Positions 18,520-63,290 of a stretch of DNA of 64,000 nt are shown here, in pieces (within the stretch, counting starts at the first letter, position 1; every line of letters starts with the position of its first letter). The notes under the pieces are model-generated. The model saw nothing but the letters and a program-made list of their open reading frames with translations, did not search any database and was not told where the DNA came from. Origin of the DNA: Candidatus Woesearchaeota archaeon CG10_big_fil_rev_8_21_14_0_10_45_16 (GTDB lineage: Archaea; Nanobdellota; Nanobdellia; Woesearchaeales; GW2011-AR9); the NCBI GenBank assembly GCA_002762785.1, contig PCXY01000003.1, positions 70,463 through 134,462 of the forward strand, written 5' to 3'. The position numbers and the translations under genes were made by a program.

Positions 18520-18892
18520 ATTCCTCCCTTTACTGGCCCTAGCGGGGCTGGCTGCCGGCTATCTGCTGGGGGTTATCGCACCTGAAGAGATCTCTTCCGG
18601 GAGGAAGTATTTTCGTGCACTATTACGTGTTTTTGGTTCCATCACGGTCGGTCTTTTACTTTTCTTTCTTTGGAATATTAATGTCGCTCTTATAACCGTT
18701 TACTTCTTGATATCTTCATCGTTGATTTTCTGGAAGAAGAGAACCATGGTTCTTGAGATTGTCCTATATGCTCTTCTCCTATTGCCGTTATTCTTATTAC
18801 AGACATACTTACAGCCGACGCTGACATCAATTCTCTTCCTCTACGGCCTGCCTCTCGGCACTTTGATCTATGAAACACAAAAAAGATCTTGA
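18512..18892 (+). CDS. hypothetical membrane protein
   Basis: Multiple hydrophobic segments. Confidence 0.35.
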   Translation: MVEFLPLLALAGLAAGYLLGVIAPEEISSGRKYFRALLRVFGSITVGLLLFFLWNINVALITVYFLISSSLIFWKKRTMVLEIVLYALLLLPLFLLQTYLQPTLTSILFLYGLPLGTLIYETQKRS

Positions 18893-19511
18893 AGAGACCC
18901 TGAAAGAGAAAGTATCACCTCTTCTAGATGAGACCATGAAGAAAAGCTGGGGTGTGGCCATCCCTAAGATGGGGACTGACCTTACCGATCAGCTTTCCAC
19001 ACCATTGTTCGATATCTACGTGCCTTTACAGCTCGATTTTAAAGAAGCTAAGAAACAGTTCAAGAAACAGTTCCTGAAAAGAGAGCTTCACCTTCATGTC
19101 GGCAATGTCTCCCAGCTGGCCAAATTTCTAGGGATAGACCGGCGCAGTGTCCACCGCGTCATCAAAGACCTAGATATCAAGATGGCGGAGATGCGCGACG
19201 GTTCAGAAGAGCAGTATAAACAGGACGTTGTTGACCAGGCTCTTCGAGGGACGCTGCAGCAGTATAAAGAGATCATCCAGCCTCAGAAGATGGAGAACAT
19301 CTACCAAGAGATCCCTGCTTTGTCACGTAATATCGCCAAATTATTACCGCATCATCATCTGACCTGGAAAGAAGCTGAACGAGAGTTTGAACGGCAGTTC
19401 CTGAAACGTCTGCTGGAAGAACAGGAAGGCAGCATCTCCACCACCGCTAAGAAAGCTGCTTTACGTCCGGAGACACTGCACCGCAAGCTGAAGAAGCTGG
19501 GGTTGAGATAG
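18870..19511 (+). CDS. protein with two tandem Fis-type (HTH_8-like) DNA-binding domains
   Basis: The segments QFLKRELHLHVGNVSQLAKFLGIDRRSVHRVIKDL and QFLKRLLEEQEGSISTTAKKAALRPETLHRKLKKLGL both resemble the NtrC/Fis C-terminal HTH. Confidence 0.45.
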   Translation: MKHKKDLEETLKEKVSPLLDETMKKSWGVAIPKMGTDLTDQLSTPLFDIYVPLQLDFKEAKKQFKKQFLKRELHLHVGNVSQLAKFLGIDRRSVHRVIKDLDIKMAEMRDGSEEQYKQDVVDQALRGTLQQYKEIIQPQKMENIYQEIPALSRNIAKLLPHHHLTWKEAEREFERQFLKRLLEEQEGSISTTAKKAALRPETLHRKLKKLGLR

Positions 19512-29340: not shown

Positions 29341-29441
29341 GTGGGGGTAGCAAAGCCTGGTCAAATGCGCAGGACTTAAGACAACTTTGAAAGATATCCT
29401 GTCCTTTAGTAGGTTCGAGGGTTCAAATCCCTTCCCCCACA
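29341..29441 (+). tRNA. tRNA-Leu (anticodon UAA) with a 15-nt intron after position 37
   Basis: Acceptor stem GTGGGGG/CCCCCAC. Anticodon stem CAGGA/TCCTG. Loop is CTTAAG, then the intron, then A. Long variable arm. T-arm GAGGG-TTCAAAT-CCCTT. A TATA box lies upstream. Confidence 0.8.
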
Positions 29442-29493
29442 CTCTTTTGTTATAGCAATCTTTAAATAACAATTCTTAATTTTGCCTACTGAT

Positions 29494-29579
29494 GCCCCTG
29501 TGGCCTAGCGGTATGGCGTTACCTTGGTATACATCATACAAAGAGGTAAAGGTCCCGAGTTCAAGTCTCGGCAGGGGCT
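29494..29579 (+). tRNA. tRNA-Thr (anticodon GGU) with a 14-nt intron after position 37
   Basis: Acceptor stem GCCCCTG/CAGGGGC. Anticodon stem TTACC/GGTAA. Loop is TTGGTA, then the intron, then A. T-arm CCGAG-TTCAAGT-CTCGG. Confidence 0.8.
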
Positions 29580-29690
29580 TCACAGGCGCCTGCCGGCTTA
29601 AAGGTCTTGACCTTTTTTGTCGGCAGGGGCTTCTTTTTTCTATTCTCCAACACAGTAAAACATTAATAGTTGCCCTCTTAGTCATCATCG

Positions 29691-30635
29691 ATGCTTGACA
29701 CGATCTCAGCCGACGTTCGAAATACACTCGCTTCTTTCTCTGAGGATGATGCCATAATCTTCAACAACAAGTTATACCGGCTGGACAGAGAGCGATATGA
29801 AGCGATCCCATTGGCTGATGCCAGAAAAGAAGCGCCAAGGATCGCCTTCATCGACGGCGGGCAGGCCGAGATACTTTCTGCGGGAAATCTTTCTGTCTCT
29901 TTCATCCGCGTGGCAGCGGCGGTCTTCAAGAGGGGTATCAAGCTGGAAAACCTTCAGGAGGAGTTCTACCTGTTTACCAAAGCCGTCTGGCATGGTGATG
30001 ATCTTTATTATCATTCCACCATCTATGGTTCTGCTCTCATCCAGAAAGAAGATCTTTACATAAGTTCCAACGATGCTTCGATCAAGATCGGTTCAGAACG
30101 GGCGCCGATATCTAAAGTGGCAAACATGGCCAGAAGGTTTGCCGAGCTGGCTCTGGCTGCTAAAGTAGATGCAGATCATGTCGTCCTTGACGGCACCTTG
30201 GAAAAGACGTTCAGGAATGAAGAGAAATATCTGGAGAAACTGTCTTCCACCATTTCGGCTGTCGCTAAATCTTCTTCTCTGTTTACAACGTCAGGCAACA
30301 GTCCCGTGGTCTTGCTCAATAAGATCGGTCCTGAAGGCTGCTGGCGCTATTCTCTTGATGAGGCTGCTCATTTCGTCAAACTCCATCCAGCTTCAAGACA
30401 CGTCTTTCGTTTTGAAGGAGATACGACCGTGCTGTCTTCACTGCTGTCTCTTTGCTCCGACGCTTTATTTTTAGGCTACCCTTATGGTCTCCTCATGGCC
30501 GATCAGCTGGCTCGGGTCAGCAATGCTGAGAAGAAGAGCCTGCGGCTGCGATTATTGTTAAACAAAGACAATTCCGAGATCGTCAATTACCTGCAGACGA
30601 TGAACGCCCATGATATCTTGGATACGTTAGGATAG
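29691..30635 (+). CDS. hypothetical protein, possibly NurA-like nuclease
   Basis: The N-terminal IAFIDGG resembles the first Asp motif of NurA. Weak. Confidence 0.3.
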   Translation: MLDTISADVRNTLASFSEDDAIIFNNKLYRLDRERYEAIPLADARKEAPRIAFIDGGQAEILSAGNLSVSFIRVAAAVFKRGIKLENLQEEFYLFTKAVWHGDDLYYHSTIYGSALIQKEDLYISSNDASIKIGSERAPISKVANMARRFAELALAAKVDADHVVLDGTLEKTFRNEEKYLEKLSSTISAVAKSSSLFTTSGNSPVVLLNKIGPEGCWRYSLDEAAHFVKLHPASRHVFRFEGDTTVLSSLLSLCSDALFLGYPYGLLMADQLARVSNAEKKSLRLRLLLNKDNSEIVNYLQTMNAHDILDTLG

Positions 30636-30950
30636 CTTGTCGATCTTGGCCGCCATGATAAAGTCATTCTCAGAGAGGCCGTTGACAGCATGCGTCCATA
30701 AAGTTACTTTTACTTTTCCCCAAGCCAGGAAGATATCTGGATGGTGGCCTTCTTTCTCCGCCAGGGAGCCGATCTTGTCGACAAACTTTAAGGCAGTCTT
30801 GAAATCTTTGAACTTATATCCTTTTTCGATCTGATGGCTTCGTACTGTCTTCCAGCCTTTCACCATCTTCTGATACTTCTTCAGCCGTTCTCCTTTTAAC
30901 GGAGGGATGCCGCCCTCACAGGCTACACACTTCTTTTTTGTAAGATCCAT
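30627..30950 (-). CDS. pterin-4a-carbinolamine dehydratase (PCD/DCoH)
   Basis: EKEGHHPD motif plus an N-terminal CxxC. Confidence 0.8.
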   Translation of the reverse strand: MDLTKKKCVACEGGIPPLKGERLKKYQKMVKGWKTVRSHQIEKGYKFKDFKTALKFVDKIGSLAEKEGHHPDIFLAWGKVKVTLWTHAVNGLSENDFIMAAKIDKLS

Positions 30951-31005
30951 CTATCATAGGATATTAGAGGTGGATTTAAATATTATCTTTTTTTAATGTC
31001 TTCTT

Positions 31006-31557
31006 ATGAAAAAAGTGGAAGAAGAACAGTTGTGGAACGATTTTGAGGTAGAGGAAGAAAGACCATCTCGATGGAAGAAACCGTTGTTGTTCATGTTGGG
31101 AATGTTTATGATATTCCTAACTGTCTCCTACATCATCGTCGGCTATCCGATCTCCTCCATCATCGAAGGACAGCTGGAATCGGATGCCTTGCAGAATAAT
31201 GTCCTCAATCTGGATTCGTTTTCCCTCATCTTCATCAATGACACAGAGAAAACTCTCCAGTCATTGTACTTCTCAGAGCAGAAGGTCGAGTTCAGTGTCT
31301 GTCTTTCCGGCTATCTGCAGGATGACGATTATTACATCACCTCTTTATACCAGCCGGCGATGTTCGAGCAGGCTTTCGATCATGTTTCTTTTGAGCCCTG
31401 TTCGACAGAATCGTTGATATTCCTGCATACCCATCCGTACAAAAGCTGCATCGCTTCCGACACCGACATCAACACCCTGAAGAAGATGAAAGCCAGAAAT
31501 AATGATGTGCTGATGGTAGTGATGTGCGAGCCTGATCGGTTCAGCGTCTATGGTTGA
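31006..31557 (+). CDS. JAB/MPN (JAMM) metalloprotease-domain protein with an N-terminal TM helix
   Basis: HTHPYKSCIASDTD fits the JAMM pattern HxHx7Sx2D. Confidence 0.5.
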   Translation: MKKVEEEQLWNDFEVEEERPSRWKKPLLFMLGMFMIFLTVSYIIVGYPISSIIEGQLESDALQNNVLNLDSFSLIFINDTEKTLQSLYFSEQKVEFSVCLSGYLQDDDYYITSLYQPAMFEQAFDHVSFEPCSTESLIFLHTHPYKSCIASDTDINTLKKMKARNNDVLMVVMCEPDRFSVYG

Positions 31558-32644
31558 TGCTCCATCTTTGGTAATCTCTCAATTGCTGGATGATGTACTC
31601 CGGCATGTTTAGATGATTCTTGTTGATGATCTCATCAAGAGGGACTAATCTAACCTCACCGATCTCGCCGCGGACCAACGGCTGGAATGAATCGGAGGTT
31701 AACTCTCCGACGGGTCTGGCTGCATAAACTTCTTTGTAGACGATATCTCCGCGGTCACCATCCCTGACATATTTTTCTACAAAATGTATCTCGTCGATCT
31801 CTAATCCTGTCTCTTCCCTTCCTTCTCTGGCGGCAGCTTGGTTGAAACTTTCCAAAGGTCTTTTCCTGCCGCTGGGGATAGTCCAGATCTCTCTTTTATT
31901 ATCATAGACCACAACAACTCTCTGTTCATATTCGATGACCACGCCAACTGCCCGTACAATGTCATCACTTCTTTCACGGAAATTATTTGTGTTGACAGAT
32001 TCTATCCAATGATGAAGAGTAGTAAAGTCATCAACCGTGATATGAGCTATCTCTTCCAGTTCCGGGCATCTATATGGCCTGAAAGCCGCAGTATAACCTC
32101 CTTGATCACAGAGATATTTGATGACCGGCTGATCATTGTCATTATCGCCGACGTATAGGGCTGAAGAGAGACTGATATCCCGTTCATCACACAACTTCTT
32201 AAAAGCGTCTAGTTTCTGTCCCATCGGCACTCTCGCAGTATATCTGCCGGTGATGATGCCTCTTTTAGTCGGTAATTCATTAGCCATGGCAAAATCAAGT
32301 CCTAGCTCTTTACGAACATGCTCAGCAACCAGATCGATGCTGCTGGTAAGGATGCCGGCGTGTTGCACGCCGTGTGGCAGATGCCTGAAAAATTCTTCAA
32401 CTCCTTCGGTGTAAGGTATCTCTCCCATCGCTTTCAGAACTCGTTCAACATTTCTTTGCCGTAGAAGCAGGGCATTTAAAGGTCCCCAACGATGGATAGA
32501 TTCAGGATCACGCCGAAACCTCGCTTTCAGCAGATCTAACTGCTTTTGCTTTATGCCTGCCGCTAACGAGAAAAGGTCAAAAGTAGACCCATCTATGATG
32601 GTATGGTCCAGGTCCGTAATGATGGTCTCTATCGTTTCAGCCAT
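31541..32644 (-). CDS. HAD-superfamily phosphatase fused to a NUDIX hydrolase
   Basis: N-terminal DLDHTII (HAD motif I). C-terminal GRKRPLESFNQAAAREGREETGL (Nudix box). Confidence 0.55.
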   Translation of the reverse strand: MAETIETIITDLDHTIIDGSTFDLFSLAAGIKQKQLDLLKARFRRDPESIHRWGPLNALLLRQRNVERVLKAMGEIPYTEGVEEFFRHLPHGVQHAGILTSSIDLVAEHVRKELGLDFAMANELPTKRGIITGRYTARVPMGQKLDAFKKLCDERDISLSSALYVGDNDNDQPVIKYLCDQGGYTAAFRPYRCPELEEIAHITVDDFTTLHHWIESVNTNNFRERSDDIVRAVGVVIEYEQRVVVVYDNKREIWTIPSGRKRPLESFNQAAAREGREETGLEIDEIHFVEKYVRDGDRGDIVYKEVYAARPVGELTSDSFQPLVRGEIGEVRLVPLDEIINKNHLNMPEYIIQQLRDYQRWSINHRR

Positions 32645-33540
32645 GATGTAAAGTGTTCTTCGATCATTTCTGTCTTCTTTTTCAGCAGAGCAGTCTGTTT
32701 TTTGGATTCGGTCTCGTCGTCAAGCGATTCAGAGATCTTATTAAGCGTCCAGACAGCTCTCAGGGTCTCATCCCGCAGCTTGAACAGAGGAAGACTCTCA
32801 ACTTTCTTCCCAGATGCCTTCTCGTATTCTTTGAGGAACGCATCCTCATCAACATCAGTATGGTTCAGGAAATTCGCTAGGTCCAGTATTACCGGTCCGT
32901 TCTTGCTGAATTCCCAGTCGATAAACATGATCTTTTCTCCATCGTAGATGATATTGGACGGTTTGTTGTCGCCTTTTAGGATGCTGAGAGACGAAGACTT
33001 TTCTTCCTTCAGCTGTTCCCTTACTTTCTGCAATAACAGTTCAAATCTCTCTATTGTCTGTCCATGTAGGGGATGATCCCGCAGCGGCTGCAGGTCGTAT
33101 CTCTGATAATGATCATCTAACTCTTTGACCAGAGAATACCTCTTTTCTCCGATAGTGATAGAATGAAGATGGACATAGGTCTCGGCTATCTTGCTGACAG
33201 CCTCTTCTGGGATACCCTCACTGAGATCTTTTCCTTCTATATATTCGAGGATGATGATACTGGTGTCAAAGAAACTTCTGCTGTCGTCGAGAAAGTATGC
33301 TTTAGGGGCTATCTTGATATTCTCGATGGTTTTCAGTACTTCAAACTCTTTCCGGGTCTTTCCTGTGTTCTCATGCGGGAGATAGCGGTTGATCCTGAAA
33401 ACATATCTCTTTTGGCCTGATCGTATCAGATAGAGTTCATTGAACTTTCCCCGGCCAAGATGTTCAACCTGAGGCTGATCTATCTGAAAGCTCTTCTTTA
33501 TCTTGTCCTGCTGGAGGTATTCTCTGATCTTACTTATCAT
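32629..33540 (-). CDS. aminoglycoside/choline kinase-like phosphotransferase (APH family)
   Basis: FIDWEFS and DLANFL motifs. Confidence 0.5.
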   Translation of the reverse strand: MISKIREYLQQDKIKKSFQIDQPQVEHLGRGKFNELYLIRSGQKRYVFRINRYLPHENTGKTRKEFEVLKTIENIKIAPKAYFLDDSRSFFDTSIIILEYIEGKDLSEGIPEEAVSKIAETYVHLHSITIGEKRYSLVKELDDHYQRYDLQPLRDHPLHGQTIERFELLLQKVREQLKEEKSSSLSILKGDNKPSNIIYDGEKIMFIDWEFSKNGPVILDLANFLNHTDVDEDAFLKEYEKASGKKVESLPLFKLRDETLRAVWTLNKISESLDDETESKKQTALLKKKTEMIEEHFTSWLKR

Positions 33541-33576
33541 CAGGCTCTCAGAATGGCTCTTATTTTAAAAATTTGT

Positions 33577-34494
33577 TCAGGGATAATTCTTGGTAGGCGA
33601 ATGGTATCCTAACTTGCCTTTGCTATGGTCCTGGAACGTTTTCTGATGATATTGGCGATATTTCTCTTTCGTGCCATATTTCTCAGCGATCATCTCATAC
33701 TCTTGCAGCGCCGCGAGATGGTCCTTTTTTATCAAGGGAGTATTTCCGGTCTTTAGATATTGTCTTATCTCTTCAAAAACCCAGGGATTGATGACAGCCT
33801 GTCGGGCGATCATGACGCCGCTGCAGCCGAGATCAAACATCTTTTTGGCGCTCGGTCCGTCGGTGATGAAACCATTGCCGATGATCGGTATCTTTGCTAT
33901 CGAGATTATTTCTTTCAACGCTTGGAAATCGATCGGACTCATCGAATCCTGGTCAGCAGTCTTAGGATGGACGGTGACCCAATCTAATCTAAGTTCATTG
34001 ACTAATTCGATGATCCCCAGGTAGAGCTTGTTTTTTTTCTCCATGGCGTTCAAGCCTAACCTGATCTTGATGCCGCACGGGACCGGTGAGTATTGCTTCA
34101 GGACCGTCAACAGTTCCCGCATCCTGGCTCTTCTCTTCAGTAAAGCCGGACCGCTGCCTTTGGAGATGACGTCCTGTGAAGGACAGCCGAAATTGAGGTC
34201 GATGCATCTGATGTTCTGATATCTTAGTTCTCCTTCTTCTCTTTTCTTTGTGATAAGTTCTAAAGTCTGTTTGAGAACGTCTGGTTTTGAGACCAATAAT
34301 TGCAGACCAGTGGGAACATCCTCCAGATAGCAGTCGATAAGATCAGTAGTGGCTTTATTGTTCCGAAGTATCGCTTCCGCCCGGATCATCTCAGTAAAGG
34401 TAAGGTCAGCCCCTCTTTTGACGCAGACGCTTCGGAAACCTAAGTCAGAGACACCTTCCATCGGCGAGAGCCACAGCGCGTTTTGTATGTTCAT
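33577..34494 (-). CDS. dus: tRNA-dihydrouridine synthase
   Basis: NFGCP active-site motif and TIM-barrel FMN-binding pattern. Confidence 0.7.
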   Translation of the reverse strand: MNIQNALWLSPMEGVSDLGFRSVCVKRGADLTFTEMIRAEAILRNNKATTDLIDCYLEDVPTGLQLLVSKPDVLKQTLELITKKREEGELRYQNIRCIDLNFGCPSQDVISKGSGPALLKRRARMRELLTVLKQYSPVPCGIKIRLGLNAMEKKNKLYLGIIELVNELRLDWVTVHPKTADQDSMSPIDFQALKEIISIAKIPIIGNGFITDGPSAKKMFDLGCSGVMIARQAVINPWVFEEIRQYLKTGNTPLIKKDHLAALQEYEMIAEKYGTKEKYRQYHQKTFQDHSKGKLGYHSPTKNYP

Positions 34495-36663
34495 GATATC
34501 TATCTTGGGAAGGAGGCTTTTTATAAACGTATTGTCTGTTGTTTAATTATCTTTATAAATGGATTTTATTATTTTTTACATATGGGGGATTCTTTAGATG
34601 ATCTTGTCAGTTATGCTGAGAAAGTACGTCGTTTTGTCGAGACACCGACAGAAGTAAGATTAGATCGGGAAGGGGATGTTTATACGGCCACTATACTGGT
34701 GGCTGATCTCTACGGAAATCTAAGAGATTGCCAGCTTGAGGTTAAGGTAGCCGATGGTTATGGTCATGTTGCTTTCAATAAAATTCCAGCTAAAAGACTT
34801 GAAGCCCCCGATATTGGAGATCCCGACCACCTTTTTCTAGGATTTCATCAGGATGTATTGGTCCATGTTGACGAGATCTATAGGAAGAGTAAACTGCGTC
34901 CAGAATCAGAAGCGATAGTTGCTCCTATTCCTGAGTCTTGTCAACCAGCAGAAGAGCTAGTTCCTGAAGTGGTTGCTGTTGCACCACCTGTTGCACCACC
35001 TGTCAATCCAGTAAGTGTTGATCCTGCTGCGGTTGCCCCTGGATCGATCATTAGGCCACCATCAACTGCTCTTGAACCCTCTGGAAGTTTAGATGATGTT
35101 GTTGGTCGTTTACCATCACCGGCTATGGAAAGATCTCTAGCAGGTCAACCTGATTATTACCATCCCTTAGCAGTCTCATTACGAAGACGTCTGGAGGATG
35201 AAGGATATTTGAGAGACGGAAAGATAGTTCTGAGAGGTCAGACCAATGATAGGGAACATTTCTGGACTTACAGCAATACTGCGTATTTTACAGAAAGAAG
35301 CGTTTCTACTTTAAGAAATCTGGCAGAGCGTCTCTCTCTCAATGTTTTTAACAGGTCTATTTTTGCTTATGGTCTCACAGTTGCAAATGCCCTCAAATTA
35401 AAATTGCTTCCCACTAAAAAAGGTCCAGCCCACTTGAATTATTCAGAATTGGAAACAGTTTTTGGGATGGAAAGGGGTGAATTCAGAAAGGTTGCGGGAG
35501 CCCATTTTGTTACTGGGGCTGATACTGCGGAGATAAAGAGAAATCAGCAGATAATCTATTCTCAGATCTTTGACCTTGCTCTCTCTCTTGATGCTGAAGA
35601 CACCAGAATTGATACTATCACTACTCCACCTGTTTCTCTTCTTGAAGGGATAGTGGCTGTTTCAGAGGAACTGGATATAGAGATCACGGAAAAACAGTTG
35701 ACTTCTTTGGAGGATTCGTTACGAAGCCGTCTTGTCAATGAGGGATATATTAAAGATGGACGGATTCACTTAGGAAAAAAGTCATGGGCTCGGGATGATT
35801 TTCTGGATTTTGGTCTAGCAGCTAATCTTATTGGTAAAACCAGAAATGCTATTTCACAATACGCGAAGAGCCATAATCTTCGAGTGTTTAGTGGGATTGA
35901 TATTGGCATCACGGTCGAGAAAACACTTTTGTATTGTTTCACACCAAAGTACCGATCAGGGCACCATGCTTTTGGAGGTCACGAATTATCAGAGCTTTAT
36001 GGTGTTGATGCCTCTCAGTTACCTTTAGGATTAATTAAAAAAACTGAAGAAGAAGCCCATTATGACCTCCAGAAACGACAGAGAGATACTTTCTTTAGAG
36101 TTTTCAACAGGGTCATGGATGGTTTGGATGCAGCAGTTTCTGAGGAGATTCCCAATACTGCCGTCGAAGAACAGGTTGACCTTGCTCAGTATCAAGATGA
36201 TTTCAATCGGATCTACTTCAATCTCGCTTTGGGAACGAGCATACAAGGTAATGCGATAACGATCGGCGATTATTCCGTCAAATATGACCATGGAATACCC
36301 CGAGGAAAGGCTAGAGATTTACTCGATGGTAAACTGTCGGTAAAAGACGCTGAAACCATAGACCCTTTTACTGTTTTAGTCCTTGTCTCTGAGCCGTATC
36401 CAGAGATCGCTGACAATCTTTCCGGCAATGGAACATATGATACGCTGGCCAGAAACTGGGCGAGCATGATGGCCGATAAGGAACAGAGGACAGCTTTCAT
36501 GGAAGGTTTAGGATACCTGTCGATCCCTGATTTTAGGACAGCTCTTTCCGAAAGAGGTTTTAGTCCGATGAAAGTCCAAAAAGATTTTGGAGGATGGGTA
36601 AAAGAGTATGCTGTCCTTGGAATGATGCCAAGAGGTGCTATTGATAAGATTGCATCAAGTTAG
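34483..36663 (+). CDS. large hypothetical protein with an internally repeated domain
   Basis: Two copies of L-R-x-R-L-x-x-EGY-[LI]-[RK]-DG-[KR]-I-x-L modules, and a Pro-rich linker PPVAPPVNP. The true start is probably at MGDSLDD. Confidence 0.4.
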   Translation: MYVHDIYLGKEAFYKRIVCCLIIFINGFYYFLHMGDSLDDLVSYAEKVRRFVETPTEVRLDREGDVYTATILVADLYGNLRDCQLEVKVADGYGHVAFNKIPAKRLEAPDIGDPDHLFLGFHQDVLVHVDEIYRKSKLRPESEAIVAPIPESCQPAEELVPEVVAVAPPVAPPVNPVSVDPAAVAPGSIIRPPSTALEPSGSLDDVVGRLPSPAMERSLAGQPDYYHPLAVSLRRRLEDEGYLRDGKIVLRGQTNDREHFWTYSNTAYFTERSVSTLRNLAERLSLNVFNRSIFAYGLTVANALKLKLLPTKKGPAHLNYSELETVFGMERGEFRKVAGAHFVTGADTAEIKRNQQIIYSQIFDLALSLDAEDTRIDTITTPPVSLLEGIVAVSEELDIEITEKQLTSLEDSLRSRLVNEGYIKDGRIHLGKKSWARDDFLDFGLAANLIGKTRNAISQYAKSHNLRVFSGIDIGITVEKTLLYCFTPKYRSGHHAFGGHELSELYGVDASQLPLGLIKKTEEEAHYDLQKRQRDTFFRVFNRVMDGLDAAVSEEIPNTAVEEQVDLAQYQDDFNRIYFNLALGTSIQGNAITIGDYSVKYDHGIPRGKARDLLDGKLSVKDAETIDPFTVLVLVSEPYPEIADNLSGNGTYDTLARNWASMMADKEQRTAFMEGLGYLSIPDFRTALSERGFSPMKVQKDFGGWVKEYAVLGMMPRGAIDKIASS

Positions 36664-36737
36664 AGATGCAGGCGAGGATTCCATATTAGCTGAAATGTCA
36701 CTTACATTTAAATATCCCAAATCATTCCTCTCTCCTA

Positions 36738-38738
36738 ATGCCTGAGACTAAATTGGACGCAGCCTCACCATCTCTTCTTTCTCTAGCTGTGCTTAAAGAG
36801 TATGAACTTCTTGATCCTATCCCCGGGTCGCGTCTGGAGGAGTTGGGTCTTTCCGCCTATGCAGAAAAAGCCTTTCCTTTATCAGGAGATGAAAACAGTT
36901 TCTATGCGGCTTCGATATTAGCTGCGATCATCAGAGAACATGATCAGATAGAAGTTCCCACTTACGTATCGAGAGATAGTATCGCTGCCATCGAATCTCT
37001 CGGAGAATATTCTCCGTTGGAACAGAATTTAGCAGGAGAGCGGCTATCATATCTTTTATCAAAAGGCATTGTACCGGAGCGCAACGGTCAGATCCCTATC
37101 GCCGATCTTGACCTGATCCTGGAAGACTTTCTCTATGCCAGCTGCGGACAGCCGAAAGTGTATGAGCAGAAGGTGGTTCTGCTACGGGAACCGGAGCCAC
37201 CAGTAGAGCCGAAAGTCCAGCTGCCTGCCAATGATAATTCTCGAAGGCCGCCGGTTATCGAAAGAAGACCACGTCAACCAGCCAGATCAGAAGAACCAAA
37301 GAAACGCAGAGGAAGATCACCTTTAGTGCTGGTTTCAGCGCCTGAAGAGACCCAGCCGCAATCGTATAGGCCTAGAAGAGTTGAAGATGTTGTTGATCAT
37401 ATTAGAGATAACACCACTATTGTTAGGAGAAGAGAACCTGCTGCAGAAGATAAAGAGATAAGTCAACAAGACCATGAAGCCAGCAGAGATTCTGTCCGGG
37501 CCTATCTCCGCGATATCGGTCGTAGACCTTTACTGACCCGGGAAGAAGAAGTAGAATGGGGGAAGCAGGCTGAGGTAGTGCATTCTGATATGGCTGATCT
37601 CATCCTATCAGCTCGTTTTGGCGCGTTTCCCTCTGGAAGTGGAGATATTTCTGATAATACCGGCCTGTATCTGGTCCTGCATCAGATAGCTACTGCTAAT
37701 TATTCGAGAAGTAGGGATTATGCTCTCACCAATGAACAAAAAGAATTGATCTACCAGCAAAGATACTCAGAACTTCCAGAAGGTTCATTGTATCGTCGCC
37801 TTGTGGAAGTTCTTACAGGTCAGAGAGATGTTGAAGAACTTTCAACCGATGTTATCAGAATTCCACGAGATCTTATTCTAGACTCAGCGAGAGATCTAAT
37901 GTCAATCGTTAAATATCAGATCAATGATGATCCTCATCAAAGCGCAGGTTCTGAAGTGAAGAGAGAGCTTGTGAGAGATCTTGGAAGAAAGCTTAGGGAA
38001 TACGGCAGACTCAAAGACAAGATGGTCGAAAGCAATCTTCGTCTGGCGGCTTCCATCGCAAGAAAATATTTTGGTCGCGGTCTCGATTTTCTGGATCTCG
38101 TTCAAGAAGGTAACATCGGCCTGATGAAAGCTGCTGATAAGTGGGATTATCGACTAGGATTTAAATTTTCAACCTACGCTATCTGCTGGATCAGGCAGAG
38201 TATTGCCCGGGCTATCGCAGACAAAGGTAAGAATATCAGGGTTCCGGTCCATATGACCGAATTGATACATAAAGCGCGTAGAGCTGAGATGACATTGGCT
38301 GATAAATTAGGAAGAGATGCTTTGCCAGAGGAAGTAGCAAGATATATGGGGATAAGTGTTGATCAATACCATAAGATGAAAAAAGCAAGGCGTTCTACGA
38401 TCTCATTGAATTCTAAAATCGGAGAAGGCGAAGATGCAGAGTTGGGCGATTTTATCGCTGATGGATCTTCTCCTTCAGGATTTGATACTGCTCAACGAAA
38501 TGAGTTAGAAAAGATTCTCAACTCCCTGTTGGGAACGCTTTCACCAAGAGAAGAGAAGATTTTACGGATGAGATTTGGCATGGGTCTGCCAGCAGATCAC
38601 ACCCTTGAGCAGATTGGTCAAGATTTTGAAGTTAGTCGGGAGCGAATAAGACAGATTGAAGCCAAGGCTTTAAGAAGATTAAGACATCCAAGTAGGACTA
38701 AGGAACTAAAACCTTTTATGGACGATCTTGAACAGTGA
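36738..38738 (+). CDS. rpoD: bacterial-type group-1 sigma-70 family RNA polymerase sigma factor with a long N-terminal extension
   Basis: Region 1.2 reads YLRDIGRRPLLTREEE. Regions 2.1-2.4 (NLRLAASIARKYFGRGLDFLDLVQEGNIGLMKAADKWDYRLGFKFSTYAICWIRQSIARAIADKGKNIRVPVHM) and region 4.2 (LSPREEKILRMRFGMG...ERIRQIEAKALRRLRHPSR) are nearly identical to bacterial RpoD. Confidence 0.85.
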   Translation: MPETKLDAASPSLLSLAVLKEYELLDPIPGSRLEELGLSAYAEKAFPLSGDENSFYAASILAAIIREHDQIEVPTYVSRDSIAAIESLGEYSPLEQNLAGERLSYLLSKGIVPERNGQIPIADLDLILEDFLYASCGQPKVYEQKVVLLREPEPPVEPKVQLPANDNSRRPPVIERRPRQPARSEEPKKRRGRSPLVLVSAPEETQPQSYRPRRVEDVVDHIRDNTTIVRRREPAAEDKEISQQDHEASRDSVRAYLRDIGRRPLLTREEEVEWGKQAEVVHSDMADLILSARFGAFPSGSGDISDNTGLYLVLHQIATANYSRSRDYALTNEQKELIYQQRYSELPEGSLYRRLVEVLTGQRDVEELSTDVIRIPRDLILDSARDLMSIVKYQINDDPHQSAGSEVKRELVRDLGRKLREYGRLKDKMVESNLRLAASIARKYFGRGLDFLDLVQEGNIGLMKAADKWDYRLGFKFSTYAICWIRQSIARAIADKGKNIRVPVHMTELIHKARRAEMTLADKLGRDALPEEVARYMGISVDQYHKMKKARRSTISLNSKIGEGEDAELGDFIADGSSPSGFDTAQRNELEKILNSLLGTLSPREEKILRMRFGMGLPADHTLEQIGQDFEVSRERIRQIEAKALRRLRHPSRTKELKPFMDDLEQ

Positions 38739-39061
38739 CCATCGCTGGATCGACTGGATCGGTATGATACGCTTGATTCATGTCTCCATTTTTTGAAAGT
38801 CCTGATTTAAGTGTTTTGCAGAAAAAGGCTATGTAGAAATCTCTTCGAGAGGTCACGGCCAACTCGCTCTTTTACTGAAGCGATTGGAATGCGACCTCCC
38901 CGGATGGGGCTTCCCCCTGTCGCAAACTGTCATCACAAATTACTGGCACCGCTCGTGCAGAGGCGGTGACCCTTCATTTTCTACAGAGCACCAGAAAAAC
39001 AAGAACTCCATTAAACTTATAAACCAGGGTTAAGGAAAGAATGGCATAGGAGGAATAAAAT

Positions 39062-39661
39062 ATGATAAAGATACATGGTAACAGGATGTCTGGAAACAGC
39101 CTTAAAGTTGAATGGGTAGCTAAATTGGTCAAAGCTGAGTATACCTTTGACGAGAAAGATTTCAAGACAGACCTGAAGACAGCCGATTTTCTGAAGTTAA
39201 ACCCGGTAGGTAAGATTCCGGTCGTAGAAGATGGAGATTTCGTCTTATTTGAAAGCGGAGCTATCTGTAAATATCTCTGTGATACGCAAAGCAGTGATCT
39301 TTATCCAAAGGATCTGAAACAGCGAGCTTTAGTAGACCAATGGATCGATTTCTCGACCATCCATGTCGGCGGGGCTATGTCTAAGGTCGCTTTCAACAAG
39401 GTGTTTGCACCAAAGATGGGGGTGCCGGTCGATGAGCAATCGATGGCTGATGGGATCAAGTTCTTGGCTCGTTATCTTCCAGTCGTAGAAGAACAGTTGG
39501 GAAAAGGTCAGTTTCTTATGGGAGATTCCCTAACCTTAGCAGATATCACCCTTTTGGCATCTCTCCACTATGCTGAACCGGCCGAGGTTGACCTAAGTCC
39601 GTATCAGAAGATCACTGCCTGGCGCAATAGATTGCGGGAGATGGATTTTTTCAAGAATTAA
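39062..39661 (+). CDS. glutathione S-transferase
   Basis: N-terminal thioredoxin-like GST domain (LNPVGKIPVVEDGDFVLFESGAICKYL). An AGGAGG sequence lies 7 nt upstream of the ATG. Confidence 0.7.
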   Translation: MIKIHGNRMSGNSLKVEWVAKLVKAEYTFDEKDFKTDLKTADFLKLNPVGKIPVVEDGDFVLFESGAICKYLCDTQSSDLYPKDLKQRALVDQWIDFSTIHVGGAMSKVAFNKVFAPKMGVPVDEQSMADGIKFLARYLPVVEEQLGKGQFLMGDSLTLADITLLASLHYAEPAEVDLSPYQKITAWRNRLREMDFFKN

Positions 39662-39670
39662 TTTTTTTCT

Positions 39671-40681
39671 TTAATTTTGCTTTCCTTCCGCTTCCTTATA
39701 CACATACTCAAATTCCTGCAAGAATCGCTGAGCTATCTTCTCGTCATGGATGATCAGGATGTTCTCATCGTTCCTTTCGTCCCCGGAACCGGTCGGGTTC
39801 ATGCTTCCGGTGATGACTGTCTTGCCGTCGATGATAAATACTTTATGATGCATGTTGTTGGGATTGCCGTCTTTCAGCACGTCCATATCCTGGTAGATGA
39901 TCCGGTCGTACTCAGAATCATCCGTCACCTGTCGGGCTTCCATCACTCCTCTTATCAAGATGCCGTCTCTATGTTTCAGCAGGATCATGTCACCGATGCC
40001 GTCGTTGGTGAACGAGAAGGTCAGGAGATGGATGGAGGTTTCTGCTTTCTGTAACTCTTCTTTGATATGTGCGGCGCAATGGTCTTCCGGACAGAAGTAA
40101 TTCTCGATCTTGACCCCGTCAAGTTTCACCGAAGGGTTTTGGACTGGTTCTCCTTTCTTGAAATCACCGTCCCACATCTCCTGGAATTCCGCATCATAGT
40201 TTTGGGCTAAGGTCTTGGAATCTATCAGCAGCAGATTATTGTTATTCTTATCTACTCCATTATTGGTGGGATTCATGCTGCCGGTGGAGATCTTCTTGCC
40301 GTCGATGATACAGAACTTGTCGTGCATCAGGCCCCAGGAATCTTCCCGGACAAAATCATAGGTAAACTTATGGATATAATCATTATCAGTCACTACTTTT
40401 ACATCTAAGCCCTGCCGTTCTTTTGATAACAAGACTTCTTGTACGGATGGCAGTCCGATGTCGAAGAGAGCGCAGTGGACAGATTCTTCGGCTGTTGAAA
40501 TGAAATTGGTGAAAGCTGTCTCACAGCCTTCACGTGGACAGAAATAGACCTGGATACTGCCCTGATCCTGGACATAGCTCTCTGAAGCGACGATACTGCC
40601 GGTCATCCCGGAAAAGTCAAGGTCTTGGTAATAGCTGAATCCCAGAAGGATGATAACTATCAACAACACGTACCGCCTCAT
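39671..40681 (-). CDS. phospholipase D-family protein (two HKD motifs) with an N-terminal signal/TM
   Basis: HDKFCIIDGKKISTGSMN and HHKVFIIDGKTVITGSMN. The start is taken at MRRYVLLIV rather than the 40795 track start, which would overlap the upstream gene. Confidence 0.75.
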   Translation of the reverse strand: MRRYVLLIVIILLGFSYYQDLDFSGMTGSIVASESYVQDQGSIQVYFCPREGCETAFTNFISTAEESVHCALFDIGLPSVQEVLLSKERQGLDVKVVTDNDYIHKFTYDFVREDSWGLMHDKFCIIDGKKISTGSMNPTNNGVDKNNNNLLLIDSKTLAQNYDAEFQEMWDGDFKKGEPVQNPSVKLDGVKIENYFCPEDHCAAHIKEELQKAETSIHLLTFSFTNDGIGDMILLKHRDGILIRGVMEARQVTDDSEYDRIIYQDMDVLKDGNPNNMHHKVFIIDGKTVITGSMNPTGSGDERNDENILIIHDEKIAQRFLQEFEYVYKEAEGKQN

Positions 40682-40712
40682 GAGAGGGAGAAAACAGGCT
40701 TGATTAATTAAG

Positions 40713-41087
40713 TTAATGGAAGTAGGGAGAAAGCCTTGCTGCCAGATCATCGAAATCCTGACTAAGATCTTTTTTGGTAAGATAGATCTCCCCATGTTTG
40801 AAATTAAAACAGTTGTCGGCAGGCCGATAGCTTTCTTGTCCGACTAGACAAAATACGATATAACTTCTTCTTTGATTGCCTACTTCTCTTAATCTTCTAA
40901 GAACATTCAACCCATCAAACTGAATATCATCGCACATGACCACAGAAAAATAATCCTTTCGCACTCTTTCCTCTAATTCTCTTTCTGAAGCAGCTTCTTC
41001 TATGTCTATTCCTGGAAATGCTGTTTTCAGTACTCCAGCATAAACAAGTCTCCAACATCCTTCAGAATCGGCGACGATAGCTTTCAT
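40713..41087 (-). CDS. CheY-like receiver (REC) domain protein, possibly degenerate
   Basis: Candidate acidic pocket (IVADSE) and VVMCDD phospho-acceptor. Confidence 0.35.
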   Translation of the reverse strand: MKAIVADSEGCWRLVYAGVLKTAFPGIDIEEAASERELEERVRKDYFSVVMCDDIQFDGLNVLRRLREVGNQRRSYIVFCLVGQESYRPADNCFNFKHGEIYLTKKDLSQDFDDLAARLSPYFH

Positions 41088-41135
41088 AAAGTCCCTAAAA
41101 ATATAAATATAATAAAAAAGTAATGGTAAAAATGC

Positions 41136-41651
41136 TTACCTTATCCCTCGACCTTTCCTGCCGGCAGAAGTCTTGCCCTGGAAGACACGGGTCTGGTTCT
41201 TCTTGGTCTGCAGCCACTGCAGGTTCTTGTCGGCTTTGATCACTGGGTGATGCGGATCGACCATGATCACTTCATACCAGTAGAACTTGCCGTCTTCAGC
41301 TGCCCAGTAGGAATTAAGCACAGTCAGGTTCAGGAACTTCTTTTGCGCCCTTTCTTCAGCGATCTGCTGATAGTTCTTGCTAAGGTTCAGCCTTGTTCCG
41401 TATCGCTTGGGTCTTCTACCTGCGCCTGGTTTAGGCCGGCGATGACCTCCTCTTGGAACTCTTTGCCGTATGATGACAAATCCTTGCTTGGCTTTATAGC
41501 CAAGAGAACGAGCTCGGTCCAGACGGGTTGGTCTTTCCGCTTTGACGGTAGTCGGTTCCTGACGCCATTGCAATAGGCGCTCCCGCCAGACTTCTGGCAT
41601 GTTTTCTTTCGGTTTTTTCCACAATTCACGTAGATTCTTATATAGACTCAT
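41136..41651 (-). CDS. rpl15e: 50S ribosomal protein L15e
   Basis: Matches the eukaryotic/archaeal L15e pattern (LGYKAKQGFVI..R.RRGG, LNSYW..ED..YEVI..DP). Confidence 0.85.
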   Translation of the reverse strand: MSLYKNLRELWKKPKENMPEVWRERLLQWRQEPTTVKAERPTRLDRARSLGYKAKQGFVIIRQRVPRGGHRRPKPGAGRRPKRYGTRLNLSKNYQQIAEERAQKKFLNLTVLNSYWAAEDGKFYWYEVIMVDPHHPVIKADKNLQWLQTKKNQTRVFQGKTSAGRKGRGIR

Positions 41652-63000: not shown

Positions 63001-63290
63001 ACTTCTGGGGAGAAGCTGTGGGGATACTTATTCCTTTCACTGGTCTCTTTGAAGCTATCAAGAATTTCATAACAGGAATATTACGAAGTCCGATCAGTCT
63101 TGTTTCAGGTACATCAACTTTGCTTTGTTCATCGTTTTGTCCTACGAATGGTTTCTGGGCAACAGCCTGTGATTGGACTGGTAACGGTTTATTGCTGATT
63201 GAAATTTTTGATAATATCATCGGTCTGGTCGACAGTTATCCTACTGTCACGTACGATGTCTGTTCAGAATATGAGGGCGATATCTTTTAA
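60084..63290 (+). CDS. giant secreted/cell-surface protein (1068 aa)
   Basis: Sec signal peptide (ASALAAS). Translationally coupled to the upstream gene. Confidence 0.45.
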   Translation: MNMQKSWMSIFMAMLVLTLPFYSASALAASVSVTSNSGEDGFQDGSLNGWINGEGDTWNLEVVVDDPLLETIDPNQVVLVLGTAERPFQSCADSALGATCTFAEPFPRGLNDGEYPFYVEYRFINENGVPDTVRSIQHVLRSDASAPKVEGFSIRQQGQDVLMDFRVTDQPATVPAVGIRSIEVYDSDTGAVLQSISLEQGDITFNYINDGGFGGRLQSSLEGQGRMSVKVRATDYFDHNAVSSGDNRLTFDYVPPQPLNVSFTRLGQFMGTHPVISDMVVYIDELSALNEVQAFSSEVELAGQRGNCVRVAGSDTLWKCTWANAEVNPNAQVSVRIATSDQFQNPVDTTLTQTFTVDSDPPVLQFFGSERTYQGASYIPRNKDTKLILQAAEQGAGVDLINGIRANLVDFTGGSASAQATECVEQEDQIFCFWNVRFSRDNDAVRVALSTFEDRVGNAGVGAEGTLQELDLHIDDVAPVVERLDIFGISESGVHDYFQSRDAVQLNMVVDEAHGLLILVDLRDLLTDALDKFPEGPFNEAGWFAVSEEDACERVDAKWDCKIELPEQIRSGPDSSVPLQVRVLDTAGNAATNYPDTDNARLTSARDGKYSIDLLGLDENEVDPDFWGIQRITSPVPFVDLESAALVPMRVPYTINLETKNDAEMLNVKLLGCQLGEGSDNATGKGPDIGKALLMGGVSESPQIVLEFDQFEGKEFFDVEKDFEDFESAKVEYVCNLQLFSKIGRAAVRAAENQEVKLEVRFGLTELGSKDENIDAKLDEIRDEVGFSILNKIRFLADIIKWGRYLAQIVTIINNFMLLVDGFIHASEGLRIVPIYGFSIASASCQTNLGVKATGYSFMSYLQWPAQVLSCNPAPFAGSAYGTYQSGVLSYYNGWKSQALIGGRESTIVQSGSLYDNIWTSGLGLCLPGVIYNLEKYRQIRCVEMQCLAEAVPAGTSTFEGCKRMGERLECKYFWGEAVGILIPFTGLFEAIKNFITGILRSPISLVSGTSTLLCSSFCPTNGFWATACDWTGNGLLLIEIFDNIIGLVDSYPTVTYDVCSEYEGDIF

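What the first reader, a model, noticed from the sequence alone, without database searches (positions are those of the whole stretch)
36738..38738. Bacterial group-1 sigma-70 (RpoD-like) encoded in an archaeal genomic context
Regions 1.2, 2.1-2.4, 3 and 4.2 are near-identical to bacterial primary sigma factors. The contig is otherwise archaeal. A GST with an AGGAGG RBS follows at 39062, and a Fis-type HTH protein sits at 18870. Either bacterial transcription components were horizontally acquired, and the interesting question is what a sigma factor does without a bacterial RNAP core, or the contig is chimeric or mis-binned.
Basis: partly seen in the sequence, partly recalled or inferred. Interest (0 to 1): 0.7.

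Follow-up and report, generated by a model that had tools for sequence, protein, structure and literature searches.

The report
Archaeal sigma-70 gene with novel N-domain
A real bacterial-type sigma-70 gene sits inside a genuine Woesearchaeota (DPANN archaeon) chromosome, a phenomenon already published, but its N-terminus is an undescribed domain that the same archaeal group also attaches to four other kinds of bacterial transcription proteins, which gives a concrete way to ask what sigma factors do in archaea.

Summary
The ORF at 36738-38738 (+, 666 aa) is real and carries sigma-70 regions 1.2, 2, 3 and 4. It is not "near-identical" to RpoD. It is about 53% identical over regions 2-4, 52 of 176 bacterially conserved positions are changed (including W433C), region 1.1 is absent, and NCBIfam RpoD cut-offs are missed.

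The contig is archaeal (Ca. Woesearchaeota) and not chimeric. Composition is continuous, a separately assembled contig is 100% identical across 22 kb, and both flanks are syntenic with related Woesearchaeota. The gene lies in a roughly 9-kb lineage-specific segment. It has an archaeal TATA box at -31 and no Shine-Dalgarno sequence.

Sigma-70 genes in Woesearchaeota were already reported (Castelle et al. 2021), with function unknown.

What appears to be new: residues ~7-152 form an acidic domain ("X") that folds confidently and has no Pfam or PDB relative. In other Woesearchaeota, X is fused to RpoD-, RpoH-, FliA- and ECF-type sigmas and to a sigma-54-type activator, often in tandem arrays.

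Best reading: a domesticated sigma module acting as a DNA-binding regulator, with X as the shared adaptor or regulatory handle. That mechanism is inferred, not shown.

The parts
36707..36714 (+). TATA-box-like element TTTAAATA, starting 31 nt upstream of the ATG. No Shine-Dalgarno sequence lies between it and the start codon, which is the geometry of an archaeal promoter driving a leaderless mRNA.
   Evidence: Sequence read. One search shows TTTAWATA-like elements clustering at -28 to -37 upstream of at least 12 of 43 genes in the window, including MetRS (-31), Dus (-33) and the upstream ORF (-30). Function is inferred from position only.
36738..38738 (+). Whole gene: 666-aa X-domain plus sigma-70 fusion protein. 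In NCBI it is 'hypothetical protein COV20_01150', Candidatus Woesearchaeota archaeon CG10_big_fil_rev.
36738..37193 (+). X domain (aa ~7-152): acidic (pI 4.3) alpha/beta module with no Pfam or solved-structure relative. It is shared with other Woesearchaeota transcription proteins.
37173..37487 (+). Basic, proline/arginine-rich linker (aa 146-250; pI 9.8, 15 Pro), predicted disordered.
   Evidence: pLDDT <50, coil.
37488..37574 (+). Sigma-70 region 1.2 (aa 251-279).
   Evidence: Pfam PF00140, E 6.8e-11. pLDDT 74-84.
37575..38021 (+). Helical insert between regions 1.2 and 2 (aa 280-428). It occupies the position of the bacterial non-conserved region and has no detectable relative.
   Evidence: aa 1-428 match only the protein itself. 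(helical, low confidence).
38022..38228 (+). Sigma-70 region 2 (aa 429-497). Region 2.2 (QEGNIGLMKA) is kept. Regions 2.3/2.4 carry Y425F, T432I, W433C and T440A (E. coli numbering).
38259..38474 (+). Sigma-70 region 3 (aa 508-579). The H455/E458 equivalents, which lie just upstream of this Pfam match, are kept. The sigma-3.2 finger is heavily substituted (E503S, P504T, E508N, T509S, P510K).
38526..38687 (+). Sigma-70 region 4 (aa 597-650). The HTH recognition residues R584, E585, R588 and Q589 are all kept and only conservative changes occur.
34582..36663 (+). Upstream 693-aa orphan ORF with its own TATA-like box at -30. It is tentatively one of a family of fast-evolving large proteins found next to X-domain genes in other Woesearchaeota.
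   Evidence: It matches only itself among 5.8e9 proteins. Its reciprocal best non-self BLAST hits are L086_1369 and L085_736, but E-values are marginal (1e-4 to 0.06) and jackhmmer does not link them.
30636..39670 (.). Lineage-specific variable segment of about 9 kb between NurA and PLD. It carries Pterin-4a, orf183, HAD-NUDIX, APH, Dus, the upstream ORF, the sigma gene and GST. In relatives NurA and PLD are 0.2-2.2 kb apart.
   Evidence: Synteny across 80 Woesearchaeota/Nanoarchaeota L15e loci. The sigma gene, upstream ORF and GST have no hit in any of these loci.
39062..39661 (+). Glutathione S-transferase gene downstream of the sigma gene, with an AGGAGG ribosome-binding site. It is also absent from the syntenic loci of relatives.
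39671..41651 (-). Conserved archaeal flank: PLD-like protein, orf124 and ribosomal protein L15e.
29341..30635 (+). Conserved archaeal flank on the other side: two intron-containing tRNAs and NurA.

Best explanation
The gene is a genuine chromosomal gene of a Woesearchaeota (DPANN) archaeon. Its C-terminal two thirds (regions 1.2-4.2) descend from a bacterial RpoD-type sigma factor obtained by horizontal transfer. Its N-terminus is a Woesearchaeota-specific domain (X) joined by a basic disordered linker. These points are shown: the gene lies in a ~9-kb lineage-specific segment of an otherwise syntenic archaeal chromosome; its composition matches the host; it has an archaeal TATA box and leaderless arrangement; and the same X domain is fused, in other Woesearchaeota, to RpoD-, RpoH-, FliA- and ECF-type sigma modules and to a sigma-54-type AAA+ activator. 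The mechanism is inferred: the protein no longer acts as a housekeeping initiation factor for a bacterial polymerase. It is instead used as a sequence-specific DNA-binding transcription regulator. Its sigma-4.2 helix-turn-helix is intact and sigma-2 probably still contributes to DNA contact. The usual auto-inhibitory region 1.1 is missing, so it could bind DNA without a core enzyme. The X domain would be the common handle that lets this whole set of borrowed bacterial modules work in an archaeal cell, either by docking them to an archaeal partner (basal transcription machinery or a dedicated neighbour protein) or by controlling them in place of the missing anti-sigma factors.
For: Real gene, archaeal host, not a chimera: archaeal markers on both sides; no compositional break; 100% identity to a separately assembled contig over 22 kb; both flanks syntenic with related Woesearchaeota.

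Lineage-specific acquisition: no sigma, upstream ORF or GST in 80 related loci; no close relative among 5.8e9 proteins.

Expressed the archaeal way: TTTAAATA at -31 and no SD, like native genes; the same holds for X-genes in L083, L085 and L086.

Not a canonical primary sigma: 53% identity against 79% among bacterial RpoDs; 52 of 176 conserved positions changed, including W433C, Y425F, T432I, T440A and the sigma-3.2 finger; no region 1.1; below RpoD cut-offs. No excess of sigma-70-type promoters (19 found against 27.3 +/- 5.3 expected) or of TTGACA (37 against 40.4 +/- 7.1) nearby.

Still under constraint: intact 666-aa ORF; 124 of 176 conserved positions kept; region 2.2 and the region 4.2 DNA-contact residues R584/E585/R588/Q589 unchanged.

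X as a shared module. All three named members are Woesearchaeota, the contexts are archaeal (L1/L10/P1, aS21, aEF-1beta, TrmB), and tandem arrays occur in L083 and L086.

Literature: sigma-70 genes are prevalent in Woesearchaeota, no anti-sigma factors were found, and archaeal TBP/TFB/TFE are present (PMC8204110).

From my own knowledge of the sigma-70 literature, not checked here: sigma-70 lacking region 1.1 binds promoter DNA without core enzyme, and most archaeal gene-specific regulators are bacterial-type HTH proteins.
Confidence: 0.5

Rival explanations
1. Assembly chimera or mis-binning: a bacterial fragment was joined into an archaeal contig.
For: The sigma module is clearly of bacterial ancestry. 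GC3 of the sigma gene (0.37) and of the upstream ORF (0.33) is at the low end for the contig.
Against: Two joins would be needed, and both would have to return to the same conserved Woesearchaeota neighbourhood (NurA on one side, PLD-L15e-CBS-RtcB on the other). Tetranucleotide and codon-usage distances are within the contig's range. A 54.8-kb JGI contig is 100% identical over 22,001 bp across both junctions. The gene has an archaeal promoter layout. Its N-domain is shared with proteins in other archaeal contexts. No bacterial protein is closer than ~59% identity. Castelle et al. ruled out mis-binning for this class of genes.
Confidence: 0.02
2. It is still a working sigma factor for a bacterial-type RNA polymerase, either one encoded elsewhere in the genome or that of a bacterial partner or host cell into which the protein is delivered.
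For: Region 2.2 (beta-prime clamp-helix contact), region 4 (beta-flap and -35 contact) and H455/E458 are well conserved. Woesearchaeota are thought to be symbionts (general knowledge; PMC8204110).
Against: The invariant melting residue W433 is Cys. Y425, T432, T440 and five invariant sigma-3.2 finger positions are changed. Region 1.1 is missing. There is no excess of -35/-10 promoters nearby. DPANN genomes are reported to have the archaeal machinery (TBP, TFB, TFE) and no bacterial polymerase has been reported. No secretion signal or delivery system is evident next to the gene. The same X domain is attached to ECF, FliA and RpoH types and to a sigma-54 activator, which would imply an entire bacterial regulatory set without its polymerase.
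Confidence: 0.07
3. A non-functional passenger: a transferred gene drifting towards loss.
For: It is a singleton with no orthologue in 5.8e9 proteins. It sits in a variable segment absent from relatives. Divergence is far beyond that among bacterial RpoDs, and invariant catalytic-cycle residues are lost.
Against: The reading frame is uninterrupted over 2 kb. 70% of the strictly conserved positions are kept, in a patterned way: regions 2.2 and 4.2 are nearly intact while 3.2 is changed. Host-like composition implies long residence. It has its own archaeal promoter. It is fused to a domain that recurs, and folds confidently, in about a dozen related proteins.
Confidence: 0.1
4. Part of a mobile element, provirus or conflict (defence/counter-defence) system, for example an MzaA-like defence sigma or a virus-derived transcription take-over factor.
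For: The best single-stretch NCBIfam match from region 1.2 to the C-terminus is MzaA (328.8 bits). The location is a variable island next to a fast-evolving orphan. X-genes occur in tandem arrays with huge orphan proteins, and in L086 within 10 kb of ParA, Bro-N and HNH genes. rpoS-like genes have been reported in DPANN viruses, one of them on a prophage (PMC12647753).
Against: The MzaA cut-off (800 bits) is far from met, and the PADLOC MzaA match covers only the generic sigma-2 to sigma-4 part. No MzaB-E or other defence partner was found among the neighbours. There is no integrase, capsid, terminase or att-like long-range repeat in the 9-kb segment. IMG/VR has no relative of the protein or of X.
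Confidence: 0.12

Closest known systems
Bacterial primary sigma factor RpoD / sigma-70 (group 1)
   Same: Regions 1.2, 2.1-2.4, 3.0-3.2 and 4.1-4.2 occur in the same order. The protein aligns end to end with solved RpoD over ~255 aa (E 1.8e-83). Region 2.2 and the -35-recognition residues are conserved.
   Different: There is no region 1.1. The N-terminus is an unrelated alpha/beta domain plus a basic linker. Identity is 53% where bacterial RpoDs share 79%. W433C and 51 other changes occur at conserved positions. The protein falls below NCBIfam RpoD cut-offs. It is encoded in an archaeon and transcribed from an archaeal-type promoter.
Sigma-70 genes of DPANN archaea (protein family fam00359 of Castelle et al. 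2021, PMC8204110)
   Same: The host group is the same (Woesearchaeota). So is the observation: a bacterial-type sigma-70 in a verified archaeal context, with no anti-sigma factor and no known function. This gene is an instance of that phenomenon.
   Different: The passage read from that paper does not mention an N-terminal domain shared between different sigma classes and a sigma-54 activator, tandem arrays, or residue-level divergence. Whether this exact protein is in fam00359 was not checked.
MzaA, the sigma-70-family protein of the MZA anti-phage system (NCBIfam NF041931 / PADLOC)
   Same: It is a long sigma-70-family protein (~700 aa) with a large non-sigma N-terminal part, and it gives a single-stretch match from region 1.2 to the end.
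   Different: The score of 328.8 is far below the cut-off of 800. The N-terminal parts do not match. No MzaB-E neighbours are present.
Nuclear-encoded plastid sigma factors of plants (SIG1-6) (from my own knowledge)
   Same: These are sigma-70-family genes resident in a non-bacterial genome, with lineage-specific N-terminal extensions, expressed by the host's own non-bacterial machinery.
   Different: In plants the proteins are imported into plastids, which contain a bacterial-type polymerase. No such compartment or polymerase is known in Woesearchaeota.
rpoS-like genes of DPANN viruses and prophages (PMC12647753)
   Same: They are sigma-70-family genes associated with DPANN archaea and highly divergent from known sigmas.
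   Different: Those are on viral genomes. This locus has no viral genes, and neither the protein nor X has a relative in IMG/VR.

Membership tests
Sigma-70 superfamily | Regions 2 and 4 (and region 3 in groups 1-3) detected above curated thresholds | tested here: met
   Pfam r2 73.4 bits (cut-off 24), r3 67.6 (25.3), r4 63.3 (24.1), r1.2 42.4 (22). NCBIfam TIGR02937 119.1 bits (42.9).
Group-1 primary sigma (RpoD) | Score above the curated RpoD equivalog thresholds | tested here: not met
   NF004208 380.6 < 555; NF006666 324.8 < 572; TIGR02393 RpoD_Cterm 303.7 < 354.
Group-1 primary sigma (RpoD) | N-terminal region 1.1 | tested here: not met
   No PF03979 hit, whereas nearly all the listed bacterial homologues have one. 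hhalign of the X alignment against 108 RpoD N-termini gives probability 1.4%. X is alpha/beta rather than the all-helical region 1.1 fold (the region 1.1 fold is from my own knowledge).
Group-1 primary sigma (RpoD) | Invariant promoter-melting and -10-recognition residues of regions 2.3/2.4 (Y425, Y430, W433, W434, Q437, T440) | tested here: not met
   Y425F, W433C and T440A. Y430, W434 and Q437 are kept. W433 is 100% conserved in the 118 bacterial RpoDs compared.
Group-1 primary sigma (RpoD) | -35 recognition residues of region 4.2 (R584, E585, R588, Q589) | tested here: met
   All four are identical to E. coli.
Group-1 primary sigma (RpoD) | A bacterial core RNA polymerase (alpha, beta, beta-prime) in the same genome | not testable with these tools
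   Only 64 kb of a 638-kb contig is available. The literature reports archaeal TBP/TFB/TFE in DPANN and does not report a bacterial polymerase.
MZA anti-phage system (MzaA) | MzaA equivalog score and presence of MzaB-E neighbours | tested here: not met
   328.8 bits < 800. The PADLOC MzaA match is restricted to aa 419-665, and no other Mza protein was found among the 9 neighbouring or other window proteins scanned.
DPANN/Woesearchaeota sigma-70 genes (Castelle et al. 2021) | A sigma-70-family gene on a contig whose co-encoded informative proteins are archaeal (DPANN) | tested here: met
   NCBI names the source as Ca. Woesearchaeota. The L15e relatives are all Woesearchaeota/Nanoarchaeota-type MAGs, and synteny is conserved.
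X-domain transcription proteins of Woesearchaeota (defined here) | An ~145-aa module matching the X HMM, joined to a bacterial-type transcription module, in an archaeal context | tested here: met
   The window protein scores E 3.5e-51 to the HMM, but it was one of the 11 sequences used to build it. Independent support comes from phmmer with the window sequence alone, which finds P0122-P0131 at E 3e-16 to 2e-5, and from L083_1342, L086_432 and L086_450, which were not in the HMM and score E 1e-47 to 1e-50.

The most novel reading that the evidence does not exclude
The X domain is an adaptor that plugs borrowed bacterial promoter-recognition and activator modules (RpoD-, RpoH-, FliA- and ECF-type sigmas, and a sigma-54-type AAA+ activator) into the archaeal TBP/TFB/RNA-polymerase machinery. 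Woesearchaeota would then run a hybrid, cross-domain layer of transcription initiation control, with the conserved sigma region 2.2 possibly contacting the homologous clamp coiled-coil of the archaeal polymerase.
Probability: 0.15. Interest if true: 0.9.

Novelty: new variant of a known kind. Interest (0 to 1): 0.62.

Why it matters
It is already published that Woesearchaeota carry sigma-70 genes. What those genes do without a bacterial polymerase and without anti-sigma factors has been left open. This locus shows the sigma module has been rebuilt: region 1.1 is replaced by a lineage-specific domain, key melting residues are lost, and the DNA-reading helix is kept. The same domain has been attached to at least four sigma classes and to a sigma-54-type activator in these archaea. 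Attachment of one module to such different partners argues for selection for a common function. It also turns a vague question into a testable one: find what X binds. If X docks to the archaeal transcription machinery, this would be a case of initiation-factor modules crossing between domains of life. If X is a regulatory handle, it would explain the missing anti-sigma factors. If neither holds, the finding remains a well-documented example of the published phenomenon.

Tried and rejected
1. Chimera or mis-binning: rejected on composition, an independent assembly and two-sided synteny.

2. Close relatives P0002 and P0003: rejected as artefacts. They are bacterial RpoD fragments with region 2 assembled twice, which inflated their scores.

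3. MZA defence system: the MzaA match covers only the generic sigma part and no partner genes are present.

4. X as a divergent region 1.1: rejected (hhalign probability 1.4%).

6. Similarity of the sigma N-terminus to the upstream ORF, suspected from shared 'RL..EGY' motifs: BLASTP is not significant and the X HMM does not hit the upstream ORF.

7. Local sigma-70 regulon: neither -35/-10 composites nor TTGACA are enriched.

8. Viral origin: no relatives in IMG/VR.

9. att-like repeats bracketing the sigma block: none found, only short chance-level repeats.

10. Word-indexed homology search with aa 1-428 found nothing. Only the exhaustive HMMER search revealed the X family.

11. Metagenome scan with the full X alignment failed because the alignment is too divergent. 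A tighter alignment found only two further loci.

12. A conserved large-orphan partner family: reciprocal best hits, but marginal E-values and jackhmmer is negative. Left as tentative.

13. Full-length AlphaFold2 with bacterial homologues left the N-terminal 250 aa unresolved.
Full report
OBSERVATION

The ORF at 36738-38738 (+) is exactly as reported and encodes 666 aa. Pfam finds Sigma70_r1_2 (aa 251-279), r2 (429-497), r3 (508-579) and r4 (597-650), all well above gathering thresholds. The last ~255 residues align end to end with solved RpoD chains (E 1.8e-83). The GST at 39062 with AGGAGG at -12 to -7, and the Fis-type HTH_8 protein at 18870-19511, are also real.

The wording 'near-identical' and 'group-1' does not hold:
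- Over the C-terminal 270 aa the protein averages 52.9% identity (maximum 55.6%) to 118 bacterial RpoDs. Those RpoDs share 79% with one another (minimum 66.5%).
- 52 of 176 columns that are >=95% conserved in those bacteria are changed.
- Region 1.1 is absent.
- All NCBIfam RpoD equivalog cut-offs are missed. Only the sigma-70 superfamily model passes.

IS THE CONTIG ARCHAEAL, AND IS IT CHIMERIC?

The window encodes archaeal markers on both sides of the gene: Nre, Spt5-NGN/KOW, aEF-1alpha, NurA, ribosomal L15e (2.4 kb from the sigma gene), RtcB and an S-layer-like protein. It also carries two tRNAs with 18- and 14-nt introns. NCBI holds the protein as 'hypothetical protein COV20_01150 [Candidatus Woesearchaeota archaeon CG10_big_fil_rev...]' on a 638-kb contig.

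Three lines exclude a chimera:
1. GC (0.45), codon usage (RSCU distance 0.94, rank 8 of 11 among long genes) and tetranucleotide distance (0.0155-0.0198, against a range of 0.0137-0.0239 for 8-64 kb) show no break at 34-40 kb.
2. A 54.8-kb contig from a JGI assembly is 100% identical over 22,001 bp (window 26738-48738), spanning both junctions.
3. I used the neighbouring L15e as a probe and fetched 80 loci from Woesearchaeota/Nanoarchaeota-type MAGs. Their conserved order is RtcB-CBS-L15e-PLD-(0.2-2.2 kb)-NurA-...-MazE-like. The window has exactly these flanks, but with ~9 kb between PLD and NurA carrying Pterin-4a, orf183, HAD-NUDIX, APH, Dus, the upstream ORF, the sigma gene and GST.

None of the 80 loci contains a sigma-like sequence, the upstream ORF or the GST. 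The gene is therefore a lineage-specific insertion into a genuine archaeal chromosome.

EXPRESSION SIGNALS

There is no Shine-Dalgarno sequence before the ATG. A perfect TTTAAATA starts 31 nt upstream (36707-36714). TTTAWATA-like elements cluster at -28 to -37 in at least 12 of 43 genes of the window, including MetRS, Dus and the upstream ORF. This is the expected layout for archaeal TATA-driven leaderless mRNAs, which I infer from general knowledge of archaeal promoters. Sigma-70-type -35/-10 composites (19 found against 27.3 +/- 5.3 expected) and TTGACA alone (37 against 40.4 +/- 7.1) are not enriched.

WHAT IS ALREADY KNOWN

Castelle et al. 2021 (PMC8204110) report sigma-70 genes (fam00359) in DPANN, 'particularly prevalent in Woesearchaeota'. 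They ruled out mis-binning, found no anti-sigma factors, and state that the mechanism is unclear. A 2025 study reports divergent rpoS-like genes in DPANN viruses (PMC12647753). I found no paper on the function of these proteins or on their domain fusions.

ANATOMY OF THE SIGMA PART

The residue roles below come from my knowledge of the sigma-70 structural literature and were not checked here.

Kept:
- region 2.2 (QEGNIGLMKA, the beta-prime clamp-helix contact)
- Y430, W434, Q437, R441
- H455 and E458 (extended -10)
- the whole region 4.2 recognition surface (R584, E585, R588, Q589, R596, R599, H600), with only conservative changes elsewhere in region 4

Changed:
- Y425F, T432I, W433C (invariant in all 118 RpoDs compared) and T440A
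- Q446K, R448K, T449N, N461H and R468M
- a cluster in the sigma-3.2 finger (E503S, P504T, E508N, T509S, P510K)

The pattern is an intact DNA-reading helix-turn-helix and sigma-2 core, with altered melting and polymerase-channel elements. It does not look like random decay, and it does not look like a housekeeping sigma.

THE N-TERMINAL PART

A word-indexed search with aa 1-428 found only the protein itself. The exhaustive HMMER search with aa 1-250 found 11 remote relatives of aa ~7-152 (30-37% identity, E 3e-16 to 1e-4), one of which (P0132, a repeat protein) looks spurious. Their architectures are:
- X + RpoH-like sigma: P0122, P0123
- X + ECF sigma: P0124, P0126, P0129
- X + FliA/WhiG-like sigma: P0125, P0130
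- sigma-54-interaction AAA+ + Fis HTH_8 + C-terminal X: P0128
- X + an unknown ~400-aa part: P0127, P0131

All three members that carry a source name are from Candidatus Woesearchaeota. Genomic contexts are archaeal:
- L085 has ribosomal L1, L10/P0, the P1 stalk protein and TrmB.
- L086 has aS21 and aEF-1beta.
- L083 has TrmB.

These loci hold more members. L083 has a 1,342-aa X + ~900 aa + RpoD-like sigma (40% identical to the window's sigma-2 to sigma-4), immediately followed by P0122. L086 has three X-genes in a row: P0127, a 432-aa X-FliA-like protein and a 450-aa X-RpoH-like protein. Several of them have TATA-like boxes at -27 to -32.

INTERPRETATION

Shown:
- horizontal origin of the sigma module
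- residence in an archaeal chromosome
- archaeal-type promoter geometry
- loss of group-1 hallmarks
- fusion to a recurrent Woesearchaeota domain that is also joined to four other classes of bacterial transcription modules

Inferred: because one domain has been combined with such different partners, at either end of the protein, it most likely supplies a function they all need in an archaeal cell. That function could be docking to a common partner or common control. The sigma part, with region 4.2 intact and the auto-inhibitory region 1.1 gone, most likely serves as a DNA-binding regulator rather than an initiation factor.

I put about 0.5 on this overall reading. Within it, direct coupling to the archaeal basal machinery is the most novel variant (about 0.15).

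Rival readings:
- mobile-element or conflict system: 0.12
- decaying passenger: 0.10
- canonical sigma for a bacterial polymerase: 0.07
- chimera: 0.02

LIMITS

No partner, binding site or target was identified. The rest of the genome could not be searched for bacterial polymerase subunits. No orthologue exists for selection analysis. The link between X-genes and large fast-evolving neighbour proteins (window upstream ORF, L085_736, L086_1369) rests on reciprocal best hits with marginal E-values and is tentative.

VERDICT

The X-domain fusion family appears to be undescribed and gives the open question a concrete experimental handle.

Noticed in passing
window 1-7400: The first ~7 kb is compositionally distinct (GC 0.32-0.36, GC3 ~0.2, tetranucleotide distance about twice the rest) and ends at a tyrosine integrase gene (7418-8446). 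It encodes a methyltransferase, an LD-carboxypeptidase (a bacterial murein-recycling type), a KTI12-like kinase and a DUF7790 protein. It may be an integrated element or DNA from a low-GC relative. A 32%-GC Woesearchaeote co-occurs in the same sample (L004).
   Followed up: partly
window 29341-29441, 29494-29579 and 29599-29633: Two tRNA genes with 18- and 14-nt introns were missed by default ARAGORN and found by Rfam and by intron-aware ARAGORN. The 3' end of the second tRNA is partly duplicated 52 nt downstream (CGGCAGGGGCTTC is exact), which may be the scar of an old integration.
   Followed up: partly
window 18870-19511: A 213-aa protein with two Fis-type HTH_8-like segments (aa 54-102 and 171-210) but no AAA+ or receiver domain. 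Another Woesearchaeote encodes a full sigma-54-type activator + HTH_8 + X domain (P0128). Fis-type HTH modules therefore seem to belong to the same borrowed bacterial toolkit.
   Followed up: partly
window 38739-39061: A 323-nt intergenic region between the sigma gene and GST contains a GC-rich hairpin-like stretch (cctccccggatggggcttccccc). It has no Rfam match.
   Followed up: no
window 34582-36663; L085 11662-13872; L086 5858-9967: Large orphan proteins (693, 736 and 1,369 aa) lie directly next to X-domain genes in three different Woesearchaeota. They are each other's best non-self BLAST hits among ~3,100 ORFs and share N-terminal, internal-repeat ('LR..L..EGY') and C-terminal motifs. E-values are marginal.
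   Followed up: partly
L083 5684-11455; L086 10001-14553: X-domain sigma genes occur in tandem arrays: two in L083, including a 1,342-aa giant, and three X-genes in L086. In L086, ParA, Bro-N and HNH genes lie within 10 kb, hinting at a mobile or viral neighbourhood.
   Followed up: partly
window 57768-63290: Two adjacent very large ORFs (771 and 1,068 aa) have no Pfam or PADLOC match.
   Followed up: no
proteins P0002 and P0003 (public database entries): Both are bacterial RpoD fragments in which region 2 is present twice, probably through mis-assembly of short contigs. This inflates their scores and makes them look like close relatives of the query.
   Followed up: yes
loci L003, L009, L010, L012 and others: Many TPA MAGs titled 'uncultured Methanosarcinales archaeon' have L15e genes and gene order typical of Woesearchaeota (73-75% L15e identity, same RtcB-CBS-L15e-PLD-NurA synteny). 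Their taxonomic labels look wrong.
   Followed up: no
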